NCBI GenBank assembly: GCA_001823695.1
Contig: MHVD01000017.1
Coordinates: 1 to 59,238, forward strand
Direction: 5' to 3'
Source: Candidatus Zambryskibacteria bacterium RIFCSPHIGHO2_01_FULL_43_25
Lineage (GTDB): Bacteria; Patescibacteriota; Minisyncoccia; Phycocordibacterales; Zambryskibacteraceae
DNA length: 59,238 nt
Below, in pieces: positions 10,519 to 45,766 of this stretch. A model generated the notes under the pieces. It saw only the letters and a program-made list of their open reading frames with translations. It searched no databases and had not been told where the DNA came from. Within the stretch, counting starts at the first letter, position 1. Every line of letters begins with the position of its first letter. Both the position numbers and the translations under genes were made by a program.

Positions 10519-12026
10519 ACAAAGCCAAAATTATTTATTCAGCTCTTTTCGGATTTTTATTCGGCGTTGCCGCTGCCCCATTTCTTGGTGTTTCTATTTT
10601 TACCGCCCTGTGGTTTGCGCTTTTGGCGCTTATTTTAGGATTTTCATTGTTTGTTTTCTTGCCTTCCGAGCTCTCGCACTCTGTGTTTATAGTTATCTTC
10701 CTAATCGCGGCCGCTCTAGGAGTTGTGCGTTTCCAGGAGAAAGACACCGTTGCGCTCAACCCGGTGATTGAGCAGTCGGTCGGCGGCAAGGTGTCAATGA
10801 CCGGCGAGGTGGCCAACTATCCCGAAAGGCGGGAGAGCAATACCAGAATAATTCTCAAGCTGGAAGAGCGCGAGACTAGGGTGCTTGTCTGGGCGCCTCA
10901 TTACCCGGAGGTTTCCTACGGAGATTATCTGGAAGTTACCGGAACCTTGAAAAAACCGGAGATGTTTGCCACCGATGAGGGCGGTGTTTTCAACTATCCG
11001 GAGTATCTGGCCAAGGACGGGATATATTATGAGGTCAGTTTTGCCGATGTTGAAATTGTCGGCCACGGCGGCGGCAACAGAATAGTCTCTGCGCTTTTCG
11101 GCATAAGAAAATCTTTCTCCGAAGCTCTTGAAAGAGTGATAAAGGAGCCGGAATCTTCATTAGCGCGAGGCATTCTCTTGGGGGAGCGCAGCGGCTTGGG
11201 CGAGGAACTTGAAAATTCGTTCCGAACTTCGGGAATAGTTCATATCATCGTGCTCTCCGGATACAATATCGCAATCGTAGCCGCAGTCGTCTTGCGGTTT
11301 TTCTCTAAACTTCCCAAACGCGCCGCTCTTCTGCTCGCGGCAATCGGTATTGTTTTGTTTGCGGTAATGGTCGGCGGCGGCGCGACGGTCGCGCGGGCGA
11401 CCATCTTTGCGCTATTTGTCCTTTTGGCCAAAAGTCAGTACAGAAATGTGCATATCGGCCGGGCGTTGCTTCTCGTTGCCTCCCTAATGGTCGCCATAAA
11501 TCCGAAAATTATTTTCTACGACCCGTCTTTCCAGCTCTCTTTTCTGGCGACTGTCGGCCTAGTCTGGTTTTCGCCGAAAGTTCTGGGTAAATTAAGGTTT
11601 ATGAAAGGCAAATTGGAATTTCTCAAGGAAATAATAGGCACTACCATAGCGACTCAAATAATGGTCTTGCCATGGATACTCCATCTTACCGGCAATCTGC
11701 CGGTTTTCTCACTGCCGGTGAACGCCGTCGTTTTGCCTCTGATACCTTTTGTGATGCTCTCAAGCTTTGTGTCCGCTGTCTTGGGGCTGTTCTCGGCCTC
11801 TCTGGCCTTTCCGTTCGCCATTGTATCCCAGACGGTTCTGCAATTCGTAATCTTTGTCTCCAAAGAAGTTTCCCAGTTTGAATTTTCGGCAATATTATTC
11901 AAACCGTTTCCGATTTTTCTCACGGCCCTCATCTATGCGGTTATCTGGGCGCTTATGTATCGAGTAAATGTTCGGACGGCTATCTCAAAGTTTCTTTTAA
12001 ATTTTTCTCTACCACACTCCAGTTAA
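10503..12026 (+). CDS. comEC: ComEC/Rec2 competence membrane channel (DUF4131 + Competence domains)
   Basis: HIIVLSGYNI motif, SFQLSF motif, many TM helices. Confidence 0.92.
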   Translation: MEYRLDKAKIIYSALFGFLFGVAAAPFLGVSIFTALWFALLALILGFSLFVFLPSELSHSVFIVIFLIAAALGVVRFQEKDTVALNPVIEQSVGGKVSMTGEVANYPERRESNTRIILKLEERETRVLVWAPHYPEVSYGDYLEVTGTLKKPEMFATDEGGVFNYPEYLAKDGIYYEVSFADVEIVGHGGGNRIVSALFGIRKSFSEALERVIKEPESSLARGILLGERSGLGEELENSFRTSGIVHIIVLSGYNIAIVAAVVLRFFSKLPKRAALLLAAIGIVLFAVMVGGGATVARATIFALFVLLAKSQYRNVHIGRALLLVASLMVAINPKIIFYDPSFQLSFLATVGLVWFSPKVLGKLRFMKGKLEFLKEIIGTTIATQIMVLPWILHLTGNLPVFSLPVNAVVLPLIPFVMLSSFVSAVLGLFSASLAFPFAIVSQTVLQFVIFVSKEVSQFEFSAILFKPFPIFLTALIYAVIWALMYRVNVRTAISKFLLNFSLPHSS

Positions 12027-12035
12027 GATTCTCAA

Positions 12036-12079
12036 ACCCCAAAGCAAATCCGCCGGCCGGCGGATTGCTACGGGGCAAG
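12036..12079 (+). repeat. ACCCCAAA-hairpin-TACGGGGC repeat, copy 1
   Basis: accccaaagcaaatccgccggccggcggattgctacggggcaag; same architecture as 15934 and 24783. Confidence 0.8.
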
Positions 12080-12087
12080 GAAATCTT

Positions 12088-12681
12088 CTATTTTGTCGCT
12101 TCAGTAAAATTATTTTCTATCACAGACCAGTTCAGATTTGTGAAGAAGTCTTCAACATATTGTTTTTTTCCTGATGGCTGATAATCGGCGACATAAGAGT
12201 GCTCCCACATATCAATGGCCAAGACGGGAAACGTGCCTACCAAGTGTCCCAAGTGCTGTTCGTCCACCCATTGTGTCAGAAGTCTTTTGGTGTGTCTGTC
12301 ATAACAGAGCATTGCCCAGCCCACTCCGCGCGTCAGAGCAATTGATTTGAACATATTCATCCATTCATCAAAGTCACCCCACTCTTCTTCTATCGCTGTC
12401 CGCAGTTTGCTGTCTTCCGGAAGCGGCGCCGGGCCGTTCTCAAACTCGTCGAAATAATATTCGTGGTTTCGCATACCGCCCCACTCAAAGGAAAATCTTC
12501 TCTGAAGTTCTCCCAAAGCGTAAGCATTTTTCTCGGCATCCTTTTTATACTCGGAAATGGTATCCAATATCAGGTTGGCATTTTTCACATAACCGGCGTA
12601 GAGTTTCAGATGCTCTTCAATATTTCTCGCCGAAATGCCCTTAAGCGCCGGAATGTTAAACTTTCTTTCTTCAAATCTCAT
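12088..12681 (-). CDS. sod: Fe/Mn superoxide dismutase
   Basis: EEHLKLYAGYV, NHEYYF and DMWEHSY metal-ligand motifs. Confidence 0.92.
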   Translation of the reverse strand: MRFEERKFNIPALKGISARNIEEHLKLYAGYVKNANLILDTISEYKKDAEKNAYALGELQRRFSFEWGGMRNHEYYFDEFENGPAPLPEDSKLRTAIEEEWGDFDEWMNMFKSIALTRGVGWAMLCYDRHTKRLLTQWVDEQHLGHLVGTFPVLAIDMWEHSYVADYQPSGKKQYVEDFFTNLNWSVIENNFTEATK

Positions 12682-15986: not shown

Positions 15987-16012
15987 GAGTGATTTTAATA
16001 TCTGGTAAGTAT

Positions 16013-18166
16013 ATGCAAAGAGACTATCCATTAGAGCGCGTTCGTAATTTCGGTATCATTGCCCATATTGATGCCGGCAAAACTACTACCTCCGAAAGAG
16101 TTTTGTATTACACTGGTTCTCAGCACAAAATCGGCGAAGTTCACGAAGGCGAGACAACGACCGACTGGATGGAACAGGAAAGGGAGAGAGGGATTACCAT
16201 CACTGCCGCCGCCGTAACATGTTTTTGGGCCCCGACATATCTTTCTGCGGACGAAAGAAGCAAAAAAGAAAATAAGCACCGGTTTAATATCATCGATACT
16301 CCGGGGCATATTGATTTTACTGTTGAAGTGAAGCGGTCGTTGCGAGTTCTTGACGGAGCCGTTGTTGTTTTTGACGGTGTCGCCGGTGTTGAACCGCAAT
16401 CAGAGACGAACTGGCGTTACGCCGAAGAGGCCAAAGTACCGAGAATTTGTTTTATAAACAAACTGGACAGAACTGGCGCCAGTTTTGAAAGATCGTTTAA
16501 ATCAATAATAGGAAGACTCTCTAAAAAAGCTGTCAAATTGCAAATTCCCATCGGTGAGGAAGATAAACACGGGGGAGTTGTTGATCTTTTGACGATGAAG
16601 GCTTATTACTTTGAAGGCGAGTTGGGTGATCAGGTAGTTGAAAAAGAAATTCCGGAAAATCTAAAAGCCGCCGCCGAAAAGTACAGAGCGGAACTTATAG
16701 AAAAAATAGTTGAGAATGATGAAGAGCTGACACACCGCTATCTGGACGGGAAAGAAATCGCCCTTGCGGATTTAAAACGAGTTTTGAGAAAAGCGACCAT
16801 AGACAACAGCATTTTCCCCGTAATGGCCGGTTCGGCCCTAAAGAACAAGGGGGTTCAATTGATTCTTGACGCTGTCGTGGATTACCTGCCGTCGCCACTA
16901 GACGTTCCTCCGGTTAAAGGAATAAATCCTAATACCGGAGAGGAAGTAGAGAGACACGCTTCCGACGAAGAGCCGTTTTCCGCTCTGGCTTTCAAATTAC
17001 AGGCCGACCCGTTCGTCGGTCAGCTTACTTTCTTCAGAGTCTATTCGGGCACGATTGAAGCGGGCAGTTATATCTATAATTCAACCACTGGAGAGAAAGA
17101 AAGATTGGGCAGAATTGTCAGACTTCAGGCAAATCACCGGGAAGAAGTAAAAAAGGTTTTTGCCGGCGAAATCGCTGCCGCCGTAGGACTCAAAAGCGCC
17201 AAAACCTCGCACACTTTTTGTGACGAAGATAATCCGATAATACTTGAAAAGATTAAATTCCCCGAACCGGTTATCTCTCTTCGCATTGAACCCAAGACAA
17301 AAGCCGACCAGGAGAAAATGGGCATGGCTCTCAAGCGTCTGTCGGACGAAGACCCGACATTTAAGATAAAGAGCGATTCCGAAACCGGCGAAACCGTGAT
17401 TATGGGCATGGGCGAGCTTCATTTGGAGATTCTTGTTGACCGGATGAAGAGAGAATTTAGCGTTCTGGCCGACGTCGGGAAACCGCAAGTTGCATACAAG
17501 GAAACCATTACAAGCGAGGCCGAAGTGGAAAATAAATACATCAAGCAAACCGGAGGAAAGGGCCAATACGGACACGTAAGAATCAAGATTAGGCCGATGC
17601 CGCAATACGACCCCAACGAAAAGATTCCTAAGAATACGCACAGGAAAGAAGGTTTTGAATTTATTGACTCAATCAAGGGCGGCGTGATTCCTCAAGAATT
17701 TATTCCGGCCGTAGAGAAGGGGGTATTTGAAAGCATGGAGCGTGGAGTTGTCGCCGGCTACAAGATGACCAATATTACCTGCGAACTGCTTTTCGGTTCT
17801 TACCACGATGTTGACTCTTCGGAAATTGCCTACAAAATAGCGGCCTCGCAGGCCTTTCAGGAAGCGGCCAAAAAAGCCAAGCCGGTGCTTCTTGAGCCAA
17901 TAATGAAAATAGAAGTCGTTGTACCGGAGAAATTTATGGGCGATATCACAGGAAACCTGAATTCCCGACGAGGACAAGTGGAAGGTATGGACGAAAGGGG
18001 AGAAATGAAAGTAATTGACGCCAAAGTGCCTCTGGCCGAAATGTTCGGGTATGTCACGCAACTGCGTTCTATGACCGAGGGCCGTGGCTCTTCCACAATG
18101 GAATTTGACCACTACGCGATTGTCCCTCCTAACGTAGCTTTGACGATCATTGAATCTCGGAAGTAG
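16013..18166 (+). CDS. fusA: Elongation factor G
   Basis: [23 protein letters not shown]; start at ATG 16013. Confidence 0.98.
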
Positions 18167-18197
18167 AGCGAGTCAGCAGGATTAAAAATTACCGTAT

Positions 18198-18219
18198 CTT
18201 GCCCCGTACGAAATCCGCC
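18198..18219 (-). repeat. Right half of the ACCCCAAA/TACGGGGC repeat, copy 3
   Basis: Reverse complement reads ggcggatttcgtacggggcaag. Confidence 0.6.
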
Positions 18220-18329
18220 GCCTACTGTTGGAATCTAGAATTAAGAATCTGGAATTAAGAATAACGAGAACCAACAGACAACCACCTGACTAGTCACGTC
18301 ATGTGGTTGTTTGTATGTATAAATACAAG

Positions 18330-18361
18330 CTATTTTCTAATTCGTACGAATTAGAAAATAG
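18330..18361. repeat. 32-bp perfect palindrome (AATTCGTACGAATT core)
   Basis: ctattttctaattcgtacgaattagaaaatag. Confidence 0.9.
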
Positions 18362-18531
18362 TTGTAAATATAAATATAGAAATAGTTGTTTTGGGTTGAC
18401 TTGTTGGCGTTTGATGTTGTATGGTCAAAGAGGAAGTACATTGATGTCATAGATGCGAAAGCCACGATTCTTGGTGAATCGCGGCAATCACCAAGCTACC
18501 CTTCGGGAGTAGCGCTACATAGGGGATTCCT

Positions 18532-19206
18532 ATGGGCAAAGAAGACAGGACAACTTTCGGACAGGCCAACCATGTGCTGACTTTGATAAGTCAGCACAAC
18601 CCAAGTGCCGCCGATCTGGACATTATCTGCGACGGCTATATCACCGACCTGGTGATGGCGGCAAAAGCGCGGACTCTTCCCGTGAGGGATAAGTTCAGAG
18701 AGGCGTGTGGCCTCGTGAAGCTGGCTCCCATTCCCCTCCCACCCCTCCTCATCCCGCGCGGCACCGTCACGGTGACGCTCAAGGAGCGCCACAATCCGGA
18801 CGAGTTCTACCGGACCCGTTCCGGCCTCTTCGTACAGCCGGACTTTCGGGCGGGAGTCATCGCGGAGGCGAATCCGTCTGAAGCGGGCGAGAGCTTCAAT
18901 CTTAAGTACGCAGACCTCGGTAGGGATGCCTCGGACAGTGAGATTGAAGAAGTGCTCGGCAAGAGCCACTTCTTCGGCGAGACGCAAGTCTGCGCCATCG
19001 TGGCAGACTTCATCGCCAAACAGCAAAACGGCGAGGACGGCACACTGCTCAACGGTGGACGTGCGAACCTTTTCTACACAGGCTCCTGCGTCGTGGACGT
19101 TCACTGGTATGCCGGCCGCGGGTGGCGCGTCGTTGTGTGGTCTCGCGGCGGCGACGAGTGGCGCGCCGGCCGCCGCGTCTTCTCTCCCGCCCCGAAGCAA
19201 GCGTAG
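18532..19206 (+). CDS. Orphan protein resembling CPR DGR target proteins (C-type-lectin-like C-terminus with variable region)
   Basis: GTLLNGGRANLFY..VVDVHW..GWRV..W....EWRAGRRVFS motif; only 5 A in 19091-19190; GC-rich, with an SD-like AGGGG upstream. Confidence 0.7.
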   Translation: MGKEDRTTFGQANHVLTLISQHNPSAADLDIICDGYITDLVMAAKARTLPVRDKFREACGLVKLAPIPLPPLLIPRGTVTVTLKERHNPDEFYRTRSGLFVQPDFRAGVIAEANPSEAGESFNLKYADLGRDASDSEIEEVLGKSHFFGETQVCAIVADFIAKQQNGEDGTLLNGGRANLFYTGSCVVDVHWYAGRGWRVVVWSRGGDEWRAGRRVFSPAPKQA

Positions 19207-19252
19207 CTTGCAACGGGGCAAGCAACTGCAACAGACATTAAGTAGCACACAG

Positions 19253-19284
19253 GGGGCGTCCGTCGGATGACGGACGCCCCTTTC
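19253..19284 (+). terminator. Intrinsic terminator after the orphan gene
   Basis: ggggcgtccgtc-ggat-gacggacgcccc 12-bp stem followed by ttt. Confidence 0.7.
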
Positions 19285-19485
19285 TGCTGGTCGTCATCTG
19301 GTTGAGTGCCAATACCTAGCGCCTGAGGCCTAAAACTAATTCAACCCATTGACCCCGTAGTAGAAAATGACATTGTGGATGGGCCACTGTGAGACAAATA
19401 TAGACAGCAAATATGGTATTGAAGTTACAGATTGAATTAATAAAACAATTTACTCAAAAGAGTGATGTCATTTTTCACTATGGGG

Positions 19486-19513
19486 TTGACTAAACCCAGA
19501 CATTTGCTACTAT
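19486..19513 (+). promoter_or_regulatory. Promoter candidate upstream of tuf
   Basis: TTGACT-16 nt-TACTAT with an extended TGn. Confidence 0.45.
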
Positions 19514-19728
19514 TGTTTCCATCGCATTTTTGTTTCCACTCCGTCTCGAATTTGCGGGACAGAGTGGGGCGGGCGTGTTTGCCTGTTGTCTCAATTCGCA
19601 CGAAGAGCCGAATTGCCACAAACGGTCAGACGGGCGTCTCTTTAGACGCAAAAGTTTATTAAGCTAAGTATTAGCTTCCTCAACAAAGCTTTTCTCGCGC
19701 GTTTCGTTGAGGCAGTTACAAAATTAAC

Positions 19729-20919
19729 ATGACAGTATTTGATCGTTCCAAGCCGCACATCAACGTAGGCACAATCGGCCACGTTGACCACGGCAAGACG
19801 ACCCTAACCGCGGCCATTCTGGGCGTTTTGAACCGCTCCGGCAAAAAGGCTGAAATAAAGGGCGTTGATGATATTGACAAGGCGCCGGAAGAAAAGGCGC
19901 GTGGCATTACCATTTCTCTGGCTCATATGGAATATGAGACGGACGCCAGGCACTACGCGCACATTGACGCTCCCGGCCATGCCGACTACATAAAGAATAT
20001 GATTACCGGCGCTGCCCAGATGGACGGCGCGATTCTCGTTGTCGCGGCAACCGACGGTGTGATGCCCCAGACCAGAGAGCATGTGCTTCTGGCGAAGCAA
20101 GTCGGCGTTCCGAAGATAATTGTCTTTCTCAACAAGTGCGATATGGTTCCTGATAAGGAGCTTATTGACTTGGTTGAAGAGGAAGTTCGCGACCTTCTTA
20201 ACAAGTATGAGTTTGACGGTGCCAATGTTCCGATAATCCACGGTTCAGCCCTCAAGGCGCTTGAATCGGGGGATGTCAACGATGAGTGGTCAAAGAAAAT
20301 TATTGAACTGACAAACGCGCTTGACACATATATCCCGATGCCGGTTAGAGATATGGATAAGCCATTTCTCATGCCCGTTGAAGACATATTCTCAATTGAA
20401 GGACGCGGAACTGTCGTTACTGGAAGAGTTGAGAGAGGAGTTGTCAAGGTTGGTGAGGAAGTTGAAGTTGTTGGTCTCAAGCCGACCCAGAAGACTACTG
20501 TTACCGGCGTTGAAATGTTCAAGAAATCTCTTGACCAGGCTCAAGCCGGAGACAATGCCGGAGTTCTAATCCGCGGTCTCAAAAAAGAAGATGTTACCAG
20601 AGGACAAGTTCTGGCAAAGCCGGGCTCTGTTACACCCCATACCGAATTTGAGTCCGAGGTTTACATTCTGAAAAAGGAGGAAGGCGGCCGCCACACCCCG
20701 TTCTTCACTGGTTATAAGCCGCAATTCTATCTTAGAACAACCGATGTTACCGGCGAAGTTACTCTCCCAGAAAAGGTTGAGATGGTTATGCCCGGCGACA
20801 CTGTCACCTTCAAAGTTAAGCTGGTTGCTCCTGTCGCGCTTGAAGCGCAACAGCGATTCGCCATCAGAGAGGGTGGCAAGACCGTTGGCGCCGGTGTTGT
20901 AACGAAAGTTGTCGCTTAA
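19729..20919 (+). CDS. tuf: Elongation factor Tu
   Basis: [36 protein letters not shown]. Confidence 0.99.
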
Positions 20920-40103: not shown

Positions 40104-40194
40104 ATATAGATATGTGTCGGCGGAGCCGACCCTGCTGCAACAAAGTTTGCCCTGATGTCCCGACGTTACGTCGGGGCCAAACTTTATTATACAA

Positions 40195-40305
40195 AAGAAA
40201 AGACCCCCACACGCAAACCTCTGTGTGGGGGCCTCTCGTACAGGGATGGCAACCATCTCAGGCAATCAATCCGCAAAGCGGATGTGGGTTTTCGCTCACT
40301 TCCAC
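40195..40305 (-). ncRNA. Candidate promoter- and terminator-bounded small RNA
   Basis: Minus-strand TTGACA-18-TATAAT at 40340-40311, then stacked hairpins ending cccccacac..gtgtggggg-tcttttc. Confidence 0.4.
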
Positions 40306-40355
40306 ATTGTATTATAGCATAGTGTGTATCTATTTGTCAAGTATACGTAATGTTT

Positions 40356-41281
40356 CAGGACCTTCGCAACACCTAGAGGTTAAGATTAAATATATGGCTT
40401 ATACACAAAATCCAAACATGCCTAAGGTGAGAAGAGATGCGGTGAATCTAGTTAAGTATCGTGGTTGGAGCATGAGGAAGGTATCATTGAGATACGGGGT
40501 GGAACCAAGCACTGTTTCAAGATGGTGTAAGAAAGATTATTGTGGTGGCTTTAGGATAATACTTACTGAATCATCAGCTCCTAAGACCCATCCCAATGCC
40601 TTAAGTAGAGAGATTATAAATAAGATTATTGAGAAAAGAGTTGGGAGAAGAAGATGTGGTCAGGTGATACATAGAGAATTACTGAGAGAAGATGTGAAAG
40701 TGTCTCTCTCTAGTGTCCATAGAACTTTAGATAGGCTGAACCTCTTAAAGAAAAAGAGTCCATGGAAAAGACCTCATGATTGGACCCCCAGACCAGAACC
40801 AGCCTTTGCTGGAGCCCTTCTAGAGGTAGACACAGTACATATTCATGCACCTGATGGAAGTAGAATTTATGTCTATACTCTCATTGATCTATTCTCACGG
40901 TGGGCTTACGCAGAGATCGGAAAAAATCTATTAGCAAGGAGTGCTGCTCACTTTGTTTTAAAAGCCCAAGAGAAAGCTTTCTTTAAGTTTCAGATGATTC
41001 AAACAGATCATGGGTCTGAATTCTCAACTAGATTCAGCCACATCCTTAAAAGCAAGGATATGAATCATAGACACTCCAGGGTTAGGCAGAAAGATGATCA
41101 AGCTCATATTGAGAGATTTAACAGAACCATTCAGGAGGAATGTTTAGACCGAACAACGCATACAATTGCTGATTTTAAGAAAGCTTTAAAAGATTACTTA
41201 CCATATTATAATAACAAGCGATTGCATATGGGAATTAATTATCAAACTCCCCTAGAAGTGTTGCAAAGGTGCTGGGGATAA
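40356..41281 (+). mobile_element. IS481-like insertion sequence (imperfect IRs 40356-40372 and 41258-41274)
   Basis: ccttcgcaacac versus gtgttgcaaagg inverted 11/12 match, flanking the transposase. Confidence 0.7.
40394..41281 (+). CDS. DDE transposase (HTH + rve integrase core, IS481-like)
   Basis: HTH SMRKVSLRYGVEPSTVSRW; VDTVH, QTDHGSEF and IERFNRT DDE triad; YNNKRLHMGI; start ATG 40394. Confidence 0.9.
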   Translation: MAYTQNPNMPKVRRDAVNLVKYRGWSMRKVSLRYGVEPSTVSRWCKKDYCGGFRIILTESSAPKTHPNALSREIINKIIEKRVGRRRCGQVIHRELLREDVKVSLSSVHRTLDRLNLLKKKSPWKRPHDWTPRPEPAFAGALLEVDTVHIHAPDGSRIYVYTLIDLFSRWAYAEIGKNLLARSAAHFVLKAQEKAFFKFQMIQTDHGSEFSTRFSHILKSKDMNHRHSRVRQKDDQAHIERFNRTIQEECLDRTTHTIADFKKALKDYLPYYNNKRLHMGINYQTPLEVLQRCWG

Positions 41282-41348
41282 AACGGGGTATAAAATTTGG
41301 ATAATAACACAAAGAAAAAGCGCACCTTTTAGCACGCTTTTTCTTTTA

Positions 41349-41642
41349 TTACAATTGGGATATCTCACCTCGGATAGTGGATATTTGTTCGTGTAGCAAT
41401 CCAATGACCTGCATCTGCAGTGTTCTGATTTTTGCTTCAATTGTTTTAGTAATTTCTGACTTTAGCAAATCAACCGTGTCTTCAAGTACGAGGACGAGCT
41501 GACTTTGAGCCTTAATCAACTCATTCTCTATTGTTTTGACAGAATGTTCTGTTGTGTGGTCGGCATATACTGAGACAGGATTGAATACTCCTACAACAAC
41601 AACAAACGAGGTAATGACAAACCCAGTAAGCCACTTTTTCAT
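41349..41642 (-). CDS. Small exported coiled-coil protein
   Basis: Signal peptide ending VYA; heptad-rich mature part. Confidence 0.65.
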   Translation of the reverse strand: MKKWLTGFVITSFVVVVGVFNPVSVYADHTTEHSVKTIENELIKAQSQLVLVLEDTVDLLKSEITKTIEAKIRTLQMQVIGLLHEQISTIRGEISQL

Positions 41643-41720
41643 TTTATTTGCTTATTTGGCTTGTAACTTCGACCTCTATCTTTGTAGACGATTGGAGATT
41701 AGGCATATTACAAAAACGAG

Positions 41721-41750
41721 CCCCACGGGCGCGCAAGCGCGCCCGTGGGG
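41721..41750 (-). terminator. Intrinsic terminator
   Basis: 14-bp perfect GC stem with a T-run on the minus strand. Confidence 0.75.
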
Positions 41751-41767
41751 TCTTTGCCATCTCCCGT

Positions 41768-42025
41768 TCAGGAGACCCGCCGTCTCCGTCTGCAGGGTAC
41801 GATCGCCGGACTGTTCAGCCAATCCGGCGGCTTGTGTCCGTTCCTCTGACTGCTCACGATTCGGTCTGCCTCCTTGTGCTTGAGTCTGACGAGTTCTGGG
41901 ACAGTGATGCCGAGTTCCCGCGCCTCCTGGGAGAGGGCTTCTTCTTTGGCCCGCCTCCGCTCCCGCTTTCTGGCGCTTGCCCTCTGCTGGTTCGCTGTCG
42001 CCTCTACCCTCGTCCTTTGAGGCAT
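41768..42025 (-). CDS. Orphan basic protein
   Basis: 85-aa ORF with SD GGAGG 5 nt before the ATG and a terminator downstream. Confidence 0.5.
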   Translation of the reverse strand: MPQRTRVEATANQQRASARKRERRRAKEEALSQEARELGITVPELVRLKHKEADRIVSSQRNGHKPPDWLNSPAIVPCRRRRRVS

Positions 42026-42148
42026 GAGTCCTCCGTTCGGAGTTTGAGTGAGCGGTGATGGTGCCTGTACTGCCTTGTAATAGATTAGTTATTTTTTCAG
42101 AGATGTCAAAGTCATTCTTTTTCAAACAAACACTGTCAAATTGAATTG

Positions 42149-42221
42149 TGGACCGTACCGGAATTGCACCGGTGACCTCCCGAATGCGAATCGGGTGTTC
42201 TACTGACTGAACTAACGGCCC
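42149..42221 (-). tRNA. tRNA-Ala(CGC)
   Basis: Cloverleaf gggccgt...acggtccA with G3:U70; anticodon arm cccga-tt-CGC-at-tcggg. Confidence 0.92.
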
Positions 42222-45360: not shown

Positions 45361-45766
45361 GGGGATGATCGGCTTAGATGGCAGGTTTGCTTCAAGCTGA
45401 TGCATGAGAGAGCTGTGGTGACTCTTAAATCCGCCACAAAGACTAAACGCAAACACTATAGTCGCAAAGGCAAAATCAGTTGTTTCTCCATTTTTTGGGG
45501 TCAATGATCTAGCTTTCGCTACAGCTCGAGCGTAAGTTCGCTGTAGTGACGTCAATTTCTGTGAGGCTTCATAGCGGAACATTGGTGTAATATTTTGAGG
45601 CTCTGGAGTGTGAGTGCTTCGGCACATTCCGAAATGCAGGAGCTCGGTACGGTGATGTTTTGCCAACTTTTAAGTCATCGCACTCAAATATCAAAGTCGG
45701 CTATCTCATGAAGAAATTAGTTTGATTCCCTTCCACACGGCGGTTCGATTCCGCCCATCTCCACCA
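45361..45766 (+). ncRNA. ssrA: tmRNA; tag frame 45449-45535 ANTIVAKAKSVVSPFFGVNDLAFATARA*
   Basis: 5' GGGGATG, 3' GGTTCGATTCC..CATCTCCACCA, resume GCA after TAAAC; directly downstream of smpB. Confidence 0.93.

What the first reader, a model, noticed from the sequence alone, without database searches (positions are those of the whole stretch)
18532..19284. Stand-alone putative DGR target gene inserted between fusA and tuf
Seen: a GC-rich 224-aa orphan whose last ~35 codons contain only 5 adenines in 100 nt (19091-19190). Putative variable positions carry NNC/NNT codons (cac, tat, cgc several times) of the kind reachable from AAC/AAT. Two hairpins follow (19206-19223 and 19253-19280). Established: diversity-generating retroelements mutate template adenines, are abundant in CPR, and diversify C-terminal C-type-lectin-fold regions, including remote targets. 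Inference: this is a remote target parked in the normally contiguous fusA-tuf junction. I found no RT or template repeat in the window.
Basis: partly seen in the sequence, partly recalled or inferred. Interest (0 to 1): 0.72.

Follow-up and report, generated by a model that had tools for sequence, protein, structure and literature searches.

The report
Stand-alone DGR target gene, retroelement missing
A small GC-rich gene between the elongation-factor genes fusA and tuf of a tiny groundwater (CPR) bacterium belongs to an unannotated family whose tails are rewritten by diversity-generating retroelements; this copy carries that signature, but no retroelement lies nearby and it looks frozen in the sampled population.

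Summary
ORF 18532-19206 (224 aa, 61% GC against 46% for the window) ends in a 100-nt stretch with 5 adenines, followed by two significant hairpins.

The main interpretation holds. The protein belongs to a large family (about 1,500 clusters at 50% identity) with no Pfam, NCBIfam or PHROG match. In at least 20 other loci this family sits directly upstream of a template repeat (TR), an Avd gene and a DGR reverse transcriptase (RT). TR-to-variable-repeat (VR) changes there are nearly all at adenines.

The window's VR (19083-19189) differs from the nearest TR at 18 of 22 adenine sites and at 3 of 85 other sites (p = 7e-14). Against an ortholog at the same fusA-tuf site, VR changes are at adenine sites and all non-synonymous (dS = 0).

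Three parts of the reading are not supported:
- No TR, Avd or RT was found in about 79 kb, nor any TR-like contig in the metagenomes that hold the locus.
- The VR is identical in every assembly and has a private 3-nt deletion.
- A pLDDT-98 model gave no C-type-lectin (CLec) match.

The fusA-tuf spacer is also not "normally contiguous" here; it is hypervariable in this clade.

Verdict: a real DGR target, detached from its retroelement and probably orphaned or quiescent.

The parts
18330..18361 (.). Perfect 16+16 nt AT-rich palindrome after fusA, probably a (bidirectional) terminator. It separates fusA from the inserted unit.
18396..18425 (+). Sigma-70-like promoter match (TTGACT-18-TATGGT) upstream of the gene. 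A consensus match only.
18426..18531 (+). 5' leader, 97-98% identical to the ortholog in L010. It has two small hairpins (z = -1.4, not significant), the second covering the start codon. A 45-nt piece (18494-18538) recurs in other contigs of the same metagenomes.
18532..19206 (+). CDS of the variable protein, 224 aa, no signal peptide or TM segment by eye. Residues 1-66 are a poorly conserved helical N-terminus. Residues 67-220 are the conserved family domain (pLDDT about 98).
19083..19189 (+). Variable repeat (VR), codons 184-220. Against the nearest TR (L011), 18 of 22 TR-adenine positions are changed, 3 of 85 non-A positions are changed, and there is one private 3-nt deletion.
19172..19189 (+). 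GC-rich 3' end of the VR (GCCGCGTCTTCTCTCCCG), identical to the 3' end of the L011 TR and VR. This is the IMH-like segment where homology with the TR ends. It is unique in the window.
19189..19219 (+). GC hairpin abutting the VR, with the stop codon TAG in its loop. Family members carry a hairpin in the same position with a different sequence. Candidate target-recognition hairpin or cruciform.
   Evidence: Guo et al. 2011 (PMC3240598)
19253..19280 (+). Perfect 12-bp GC stem with loop GGAT, followed by TTTCT. Probably the intrinsic terminator of the gene.
15989..18166 (+). fusA (EF-G), upstream neighbour. Its last 170 nt or so belong to a tract 91-99% identical to L010, while the rest of fusA is about 80% identical.
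19729..20919 (+). tuf (EF-Tu), downstream neighbour, with its own promoter-like site at 19486-19513.

Best explanation
The ORF encodes a small, probably cytoplasmic binding protein of an unannotated CPR family. The C-terminal 36 or so codons of this family form the variable repeat (VR) of a diversity-generating retroelement (DGR).

Shown: the present VR sequence was written by adenine-specific mutagenic retrohoming. A DGR reverse transcriptase copies a template-repeat RNA carrying AAY/AAG codons, misincorporates opposite adenines, and the cDNA replaces the VR up to a GC-rich 3' boundary next to a hairpin. The template was nearly identical to the TR seen in locus L011.

Shown: the gene now stands alone as its own transcription unit (promoter-like site, terminator hairpin). 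It lies in the fusA-tuf spacer of a Candidatus Zambryskibacteria genome, a spacer that is an insertion hot spot in this clade. The scaffold is under purifying selection, so the protein is in use.

Inferred: in the sampled population the gene is detached from its retroelement. Either the TR-Avd-RT module was lost, or the target was acquired without it through recombination in the hot spot. The VR is now a fixed specificity that is starting to drift, as the private 3-nt deletion suggests. The cis elements needed for homing are intact, so it could be rewritten again if a matching DGR were present.
For: Family membership and DGR linkage:
- 13 close homologs and 1,497 clusters.
- Canonical target-TR-Avd(-)-RT(+) cassettes in L011, L018-L020, L022, L030, L035-L038, L045, L051, L052, L054, L056-L060, L062, L063 and L067.
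- 72 of 72 TR-to-VR substitutions are at TR adenines in five cassettes, and 80-100% in the others.

Window VR:
- 18 of 22 A sites against 3 of 85 non-A sites differ from the L011 TR, p = 7e-14.
- 0 of 32 family-invariant non-A columns are changed, and 11 of 15 conserved A columns are changed.

Ortholog L010 at the same fusA-tuf site:
- It differs at 11 of 22 A sites against 3 of 85 non-A sites (p = 6e-7).
- In the VR, dN = 0.195 and dS = 0. The adjoining domain has dN/dS = 0.25 with dS = 0.36.
- So homing occurred after the two lineages split, and the scaffold is under selection.

Cis elements: the IMH-like 18-mer and the adjacent hairpin are conserved in position across the family.

Detachment:
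- No RT, Avd or TR in the window or in 10 kb beyond either end.
- No TR-like piece in Logan contigs of 5 runs; four of them carry the locus at 6-15x and one (X5) at about 3x.
- Identical DNA in the nine stored contigs, and an identical protein in all 21.
- The 3-nt deletion is unique among the 14 family members aligned.

Precedents for both routes to detachment:
- A full DGR cassette sits in the secY-adk junction of a Zambryskibacteria genome (L151), the junction where a decaying stand-alone copy sits in L014.
- A recombination-like high-identity tract (about 18000-19350) is shared between the window and L010.
Against: The whole genome could not be searched. The window's genome is absent from the searchable genome collection, so a TR/RT more than 30-50 kb away is not excluded.

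A DGR RT of the nearest clade (P0017, 73% identical to the L011 RT) occurs in the same samples, on 1.7-1.8 kb contigs that stop inside avd before any TR.

The VR scaffold shows no decay: 0 of 32 invariant non-A positions are changed. dS = 0 in the VR argues that the last homing was recent.

Contigs drop rare variants, so low-frequency VR diversity would be invisible.

The 3-nt deletion could be present in an unseen cognate TR.
Confidence: 0.55

Rival explanations
1. Active remote target. A complete DGR (TR-Avd-RT, probably with its own cis target) lies elsewhere in the same genome and still rewrites this VR in trans. It would recognise the shared GC-rich 3' end and the hairpin. The sampled population is dominated by one selected variant.
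For: - All cis elements are intact, and the ORF and scaffold are under purifying selection.
- A-site-only differences and dS = 0 against ortholog L010 imply homing at this stand-alone site after the lineages split.
- An RT of the closest clade is present in the same samples.
- Family DGRs can serve two targets, including one about 3 kb from the TR (L056, L063, L059).
- Trans action and remote targets are established for other DGRs (Wu et al. 2018, PMC5758913; Guo et al. 2011, PMC3240598).
Against: - No TR-like contig in five runs holding the locus, although the aligner reported pieces as short as 22-33 nt.
- No L011-type paralog or TR from these samples in the protein and locus searches. The cassettes from the same JGI samples (L035, L036) have 15 non-A mismatches.
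- The VR is invariant in the nine stored contigs (DNA) and in all 21 at protein level.
- The private 3-nt deletion would be erased by homing from a full-length TR.
- Wu et al. found remote targets only in non-CPR lineages.
Confidence: 0.35
2. Remnant of a cassette that once sat in this very spacer. A full target-TR-Avd-RT unit was inserted between fusA and tuf, and the TR-Avd-RT part was later deleted cleanly. This is a sub-case of the orphan reading.
For: - L151 shows a full cassette inside a ribosomal-operon junction (secY-adk) in the same candidate phylum.
- L014 has only the target at that junction, with signs of decay: 3-5 non-A changes, two scaffold Trp residues lost, and a weak hairpin.
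- Degenerate cassettes exist, such as L021, L048 and L064.
Against: - No trace of TR, avd or RT at E <= 10 in 19285-19728 or anywhere in the window.
- The ortholog L010 lacks them as well.
- None of the 80 related fusA loci carries a cassette or a target there.
Confidence: 0.15
3. Not a DGR feature at all. On this reading it is a GC-rich horizontally acquired orphan whose adenine-poor tail is a by-product of composition, or an assembly chimera.
For: High GC alone lowers the A count. The window holds no TR or RT.
Against: - The position-specific pattern against independent TRs gives p = 7e-14.
- Homologs sit in cassettes.
- 21 contigs from several assemblies, and a syntenic ortholog from another site, carry the same arrangement.
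- All family targets are GC-rich relative to their flanks, even next to an AT-rich RT.
Confidence: 0.02

Closest known systems
CPR (Patescibacteria) DGRs. These are cellular 'clade 2' of Roux et al. 2021 (PMC8144416) and the CPR lineage of Wu et al. 2018 (PMC5758913). Paul et al. 2017 is cited from memory; the paper is not held.
   Same: The family's cassettes have the target-TR-Avd-RT layout, and the RTs are 57-79% identical to one another. Adenine-only TR-to-VR changes fall on AAY codons in a C-terminal VR. The hosts are Parcubacteria (Zambryskibacteria and relatives) from groundwater.
   Different: The window copy has no TR, Avd or RT within about 79 kb. [quoted passage not shown] Roux et al. 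could not detect remote targets by design.
Treponema denticola DGR with TvpA and remote targets; Legionella LdtA
   Same: The concept of one TR/RT serving targets far from the cassette, with a C-terminal VR followed by a hairpin.
   Different: For those systems the cognate TR is known and matches at all non-A sites. Here none was found. No sequence or fold match to TvpA was detected.
Bordetella phage BPP-1 mtd target site (IMH plus hairpin/cruciform; Guo et al. 2011, PMC3240598)
   Same: A GC-rich 3' end of the VR shared with the TR, and a GC-rich inverted repeat just downstream around the stop codon. Stem structure is conserved across the family rather than sequence.
   Different: The stems are 6+6 bp interrupted, or 6-8 bp, with 3-5 nt loops and no GRNA loop. 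The function of the hairpin here is inferred, not tested.
AvpA and other small CLec-fold variable proteins of nanosized archaea (Handa et al. 2016, PMC5006420)
   Same: A small single-domain variable protein of an ultra-small symbiont-type organism, unclassifiable by sequence. The order of elements, beta-alpha-alpha-beta-beta-beta-beta (residues 121-219), fits the CLec core.
   Different: No structural match was returned, so CLec membership is unproven. The VR here is at the very C-terminus.

Membership tests
DGR variable (target) gene | The VR pairs with a TR, and the differences fall only at TR adenines | tested here: met
   Against the nearest available TR, from another genome (L011): 18 of 22 A sites against 3 of 85 non-A sites differ, p = 7e-14. 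Against 18 TRs: 11 of 15 conserved A columns changed and 0 of 32 invariant non-A columns changed. The cognate TR of this genome was not found.
DGR variable (target) gene | A DGR-type RT (with Avd) and a TR in the same genome | tested here: inconclusive
   Absent from the window and from 10 kb beyond each end. No TR-like contigs in runs holding the locus. The full genome was not searchable. An unlinked RT of the nearest clade is in the same samples.
DGR variable (target) gene | Homologs are demonstrable targets inside canonical cassettes | tested here: met
   At least 20 loci with target-TR-Avd-RT. 72 of 72 substitutions are at adenines in five of them.
DGR variable (target) gene | The VR is at the 3' end of the ORF, with variable codons derived from AAY, no synonymous change, and no stops | tested here: met
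   The VR spans codons 184-220. Variable positions hold residues encodable from NNC/NNT or NNG codons. Against the ortholog, dN = 0.195 and dS = 0.
DGR variable (target) gene | IMH-like GC-rich 3' boundary plus a downstream hairpin/cruciform | tested here: met
   The 18-mer 19172-19189 is identical to the TR end. The hairpin 19189-19219 has z = -4.7. Hairpins occupy the same position in family members. Function not testable here.
DGR variable (target) gene | Ongoing diversification: VR heterogeneity within the population | tested here: not met
   Identical DNA in the nine stored contigs, and an identical protein in all 21; single unbroken Logan contigs in 4 runs. This is contig-level only. Raw reads of these 2015-2016 runs are not available, so rare variants are untested.
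C-type lectin (CLec) fold variable proteins | CLec fold: beta1/beta5 pairing, two helices, and a four-stranded sheet carrying the VR | tested here: inconclusive
Mobile element or genomic island with defined ends | Terminal repeats, target-site duplication, or an integrase | tested here: not met
   No flanking direct or inverted repeats bound the GC island. No integrase is adjacent.

The most novel reading that the evidence does not exclude
A CPR bacterium runs a trans-acting DGR whose remote target is a cytoplasmic protein on a scaffold that is not a recognisable C-type lectin fold. On this reading, such targets, and whole cassettes, are preferentially placed in the variable junctions of the highly transcribed ribosomal-protein and elongation-factor operons (fusA-tuf, secY-adk, the NDK to beta-CASP to rplT stretch, i.e. 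NDK-rplT). That would hint at a functional link between operon context and either expression or retrohoming of variable proteins.
Probability: 0.15. Interest if true: 0.75.

Novelty: new member of a known kind. Interest (0 to 1): 0.5.

Why it matters
DGR surveys of metagenomes only count targets next to an RT, as Roux et al. 2021 state explicitly. This locus shows that a widespread, unannotated CPR variable-protein family also exists as detached copies. These can be recognised from the VR alone by scoring it against family TRs.

Such copies record either trans-diversification in ultra-small symbionts or the afterlife of DGR targets as fixed binding proteins.

The family also offers a very confident structural model with no detected relative. 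This bears on whether CLec is really the only scaffold used for DGR hypervariation.

Finally, the locus shows that the fusA-tuf and spc-operon junctions are cargo hot spots in Zambryskibacteria and relatives.

Tried and rejected
Looking for a cognate TR/RT:
- Self-BLAST of the VR against the window found no TR. tblastn of the L011 RT and Avd against the window and all loci found nothing near the gene.
- VR/TR patterns with N at the A sites gave 0 hits in genome contigs, so the window genome is not in that collection. They also gave 0 hits in metagenome contigs.
- A general family TR pattern found only five cassette genomes among the GTDB representatives.
- A pattern specific to the L014 VR found only the VR itself in that genome.
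- Walking from RT P0017 through its partial Avd to a longer contig failed. The best relative extends only 16 codons further.
- Two contig look-ups were wasted because I mis-set minus-strand coordinates.
- RT homolog P0016 turned out to belong to a different target family and TR.

Other checks:
- Rfam on 18100-19800 gave only chance hits.
- Pfam (146 members), NCBIfam and PHROGs (8 members each) and PDB sequence searches gave nothing.
- No RNA-seq run holds the gene.

Readings rejected:
- The GC island as a bounded mobile element: no terminal repeats.
- GC-richness as proof of recent horizontal transfer: every family target is 6-17 GC points above its flanks, even inside cassettes with an AT-rich RT.

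Full report
**1. The observation**

The ORF is at 18532-19206 (+), 224 aa. Its GC content is 61.3% against 45.7% for the window, and a GC island spans roughly 18450-19300. The stretch 19091-19190 holds exactly 5 adenines. Only three places in the 59-kb window reach 6 or fewer A per 100 nt.

Both hairpins are real. 19189-19219 folds at -14.4 kcal/mol (z = -4.7) with the stop codon in its loop. 19253-19280 is a perfect 12-bp GC stem (-18.1 kcal/mol, z = -6.9) followed by TTTCT. The neighbours are fusA (15989-18166) and tuf (19729-20919).

The gene has its own promoter-like site at 18396-18425. An AT-rich palindrome at 18330-18361 separates it from fusA. The only correction is that the gene is not an orphan.

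**2. What the protein is**

There is no hit in Pfam, NCBIfam, PHROGs or PDB sequences, for this protein or for family members. It does have 13 close homologs. A profile search finds 1,497 clusters at 50% identity with E <= 1e-3, and 705 with E <= 1e-10.

The alignment shows a variable helical N-terminus and a conserved domain of about 150 aa. The domain ends in ANLFYTxSCVVxVxWxAxxRxWxVxxWxRxxxRWxAGxRVFSPA. In this motif, invariant Trp, Arg and Val alternate with hypervariable positions, which hold only residues encodable by NNC or NNG codons.

**3. The family is a DGR target family**

Homolog P0003 (L011) is followed by a 116-nt repeat of its own 3' end, then a bAvd gene on the other strand, then an RVT_1 reverse transcriptase. 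The same layout recurs in L018, L019, L020, L022 and L030, and in about 15 metagenome loci.

In the first five cassettes, all 72 TR-to-VR substitutions are at TR adenines. In the other cassettes 80-100% are. Some cassettes serve two targets (L056, L063, L059).

**4. The window's VR carries the same signature**

Window 19083-19189 aligns with the L011 TR. It agrees at 82 of 85 non-A positions but at only 4 of 22 A positions, with one 3-nt deletion (Fisher p = 7e-14).

Scored against 18 TRs, 0 of 32 family-invariant non-A columns are changed, and 11 of 15 conserved A columns are changed. This is indistinguishable from cassette-linked VRs.

The last 18 nt (19172-19189) are identical to the end of the L011 TR and VR. 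Homology stops there, and the first hairpin follows at once. Family members have a GC hairpin of different sequence at the same place. This matches the IMH-plus-hairpin target site defined for phage BPP-1 (PMC3240598).

**5. Evidence from an ortholog**

L010 comes from another site's metagenome. It carries an 83%-identical gene in the same fusA-tuf position.

Within the VR the two copies differ at 11 of 22 TR-adenine positions and at 3 of 85 other positions (p = 6e-7). In the VR, dN = 0.195 and dS = 0. The adjoining domain has dS = 0.36 and dN/dS = 0.25.

So the scaffold is under purifying selection. The VR was rewritten from a nearly unchanged template after the two lineages diverged, while the gene already stood alone at this site. 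The alternative is that each lineage received the island separately.

The identity profile supports some lateral exchange. About 18000-18600 is 91-99% identical, against about 80% for the rest of fusA.

**6. Is a DGR still acting on it?**

Evidence against:
- No RT, Avd or TR in the window or in 10 kb beyond either end. That is about 28 kb upstream and 50 kb downstream.
- Logan contigs were checked in five runs; four carry the locus at 6-15x and one (X5) at about 3x. They show one unbroken contig across the VR, or (in two runs) a contig that begins or breaks outside the VR, and no TR-like piece. Yet pieces of 22-45 nt at 84-95% identity were reported for other elements.
- The nine stored contigs are identical in DNA over the gene and up to 400 nt either side, and all 21 contigs encode the identical protein.
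- The window VR has a 3-nt deletion seen in none of the other 13 aligned family members. Homing from a full-length TR would erase it.
- Cassettes from the same JGI samples (L035, L036) have 15 non-A mismatches, so they are not cognate.

Evidence for:
- The cis elements and the scaffold are intact.
- dS = 0 in the VR implies recent homing.
- An RT of the nearest clade (P0017) occurs in the same samples, on short contigs that end inside avd.

The genome itself could not be searched, and raw reads are not available. I put an orphaned or quiescent state at about 0.55-0.6, and an active remote target at about 0.35.

**7. Context**

The closest EF-G relatives are Candidatus Zambryskibacteria and other Parcubacteria. 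Among 55 species representatives with both genes within 4 kb, the fusA-tuf spacer ranges from 167 to 3,750 nt. It holds unrelated small ORFs, and in 25 further loci no tuf was found in the sequence held downstream of fusA (under 1 kb to 4 kb), where PNPase, L10/L12 or other genes follow. None of the 80 carries this gene or an RT. So the junction is a hot spot, not a normally contiguous pair.

Other detached family copies lie:
- between secY and adk (L014);
- after NDK-PemK (L012);
- between the beta-CASP gene and rplT (L042);
- in unrelated contexts (L040, L044, L050).

A complete cassette of a sister target family sits between secY and adk in a Zambryskibacteria genome (L151). This gives a plausible route from a cassette in an operon junction to a lone target. 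L014 shows decay: non-A changes, two lost Trp residues and a weak hairpin.

**8. Fold**

**9. Comparison and novelty**

The gene works like a DGR variable protein. It meets the sequence-level membership tests against a heterologous TR, but lacks a demonstrated cognate TR/RT.

Remote targets are known, for example in Treponema. Wu et al. found them only outside the CPR lineage, and Roux et al. could not detect them.

I file it as a new member of a known kind. It is a detached copy of an unannotated CPR DGR target family. Two open extras could raise its interest: trans-targeting in CPR, and a scaffold that is not recognisably CLec.

Noticed in passing
window 19352-19486 (L010 10827-10962): A segment of about 135 nt bounded by imperfect 22-nt inverted repeats (ACCCCGTAGTAGAAAATGACAT / ATGTCATTTTTCACTATGGGGT). 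It is in the opposite orientation in the ortholog L010 at 90% identity, while everything around it is collinear. It sits just upstream of the tuf promoter-like site. It could be an invertible segment or a small palindromic element inserted either way round. A low-depth contig in the same metagenomes carries the repeat motif as a tight palindrome.
   Followed up: partly
L068-L147 (fusA-tuf junction of 80 related genomes): The fusA-tuf spacer is hypervariable in Zambryskibacteria and Parcubacteria. It ranges from 167 to 3,750 nt in 55 species and holds many unrelated small ORFs. In other lineages fusA is followed by PNPase or L10/L12 instead of tuf.
   Followed up: partly
L151 5050-7304 (GCA_016180955.1, JACPAD010000005.1): A complete DGR cassette (target, TR, Avd, RT) is inserted between secY and adk inside the spc ribosomal operon of a Zambryskibacteria genome. 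Its target is of a sister family (like that of L148). It appears frameshifted at the start of the VR and has one G-to-T non-adenine change.
   Followed up: partly
L010 7082-7450: The ortholog contig has a PF05635 (23S_rRNA_IVP, Avd-like four-helix bundle) gene between rpsG and fusA. The window lacks it; there the rpsG-fusA spacer is 106 nt.
   Followed up: no
all family loci (for example L011 10001-10681 against 11520-12500): Target genes are always 6-17 GC points above their flanks (59% against 43% in L011). This holds even inside cassettes whose RT is 36% GC. It looks like a family-wide compositional constraint rather than recent horizontal transfer. Unexplained.
   Followed up: partly
window 18494-18538: A 45-nt piece of the 5' leader, including the start codon, recurs with 6-7 mismatches in two or three other contigs of each metagenome that holds the locus, among them a 3,368-nt contig common to three of the runs. 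It may be a shared leader motif. It was not found in any locus fetched here.
   Followed up: partly
window about 18000-18600 against L010: The last 170 nt or so of fusA, the spacer and the start of the gene are 91-99% identical to L010. The rest of fusA is about 80% identical and rpsG about 75%. This looks like a recent recombination or gene-conversion tract.
   Followed up: partly
window 40112-42221: A DDE/rve-type transposase-like ORF lies at 40112-41281. It is followed by a GC-rich stretch that is adenine-poor on the + strand (41893-42010). On the minus strand this stretch overlaps an Arg/Lys-rich 85-aa ORF, next to tRNA-Ala (42148-42221). No VR-like pattern.
   Followed up: partly
L149 and L150 (ERZ27254763, ERZ28563625): A DGR RT (P0017, 73% identical to the L011 RT) with a partial Avd occurs in the same sample series as the window's contigs. 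Both assemblies break at the same point inside avd, so its TR is unseen.
   Followed up: partly
L021, L048, L064, L053: Degenerate arrangements occur in the family. In some the target ORF runs directly into a truncated RT. In others there are tandem partial target copies without an intact cassette.
   Followed up: no
TR 3' flanks in L011, L018-L020, L022: Every TR is followed by AAACT, a short stem, then a conserved hairpin CTCCCGN(n)CGGGAG plus TTTT facing the end of avd. Every cassette VR, and the detached L014, is followed further downstream by a conserved terminator-like element containing TTTGACACTGTGTCAC. The window and L010 have different 3' elements.
   Followed up: no
window 45361-45766: A tmRNA gene (tag ANTIVAKAKSVVSPFFGVNDLAFATARA) and an smpB homolog lie nearby. 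This is ordinary.
   Followed up: no
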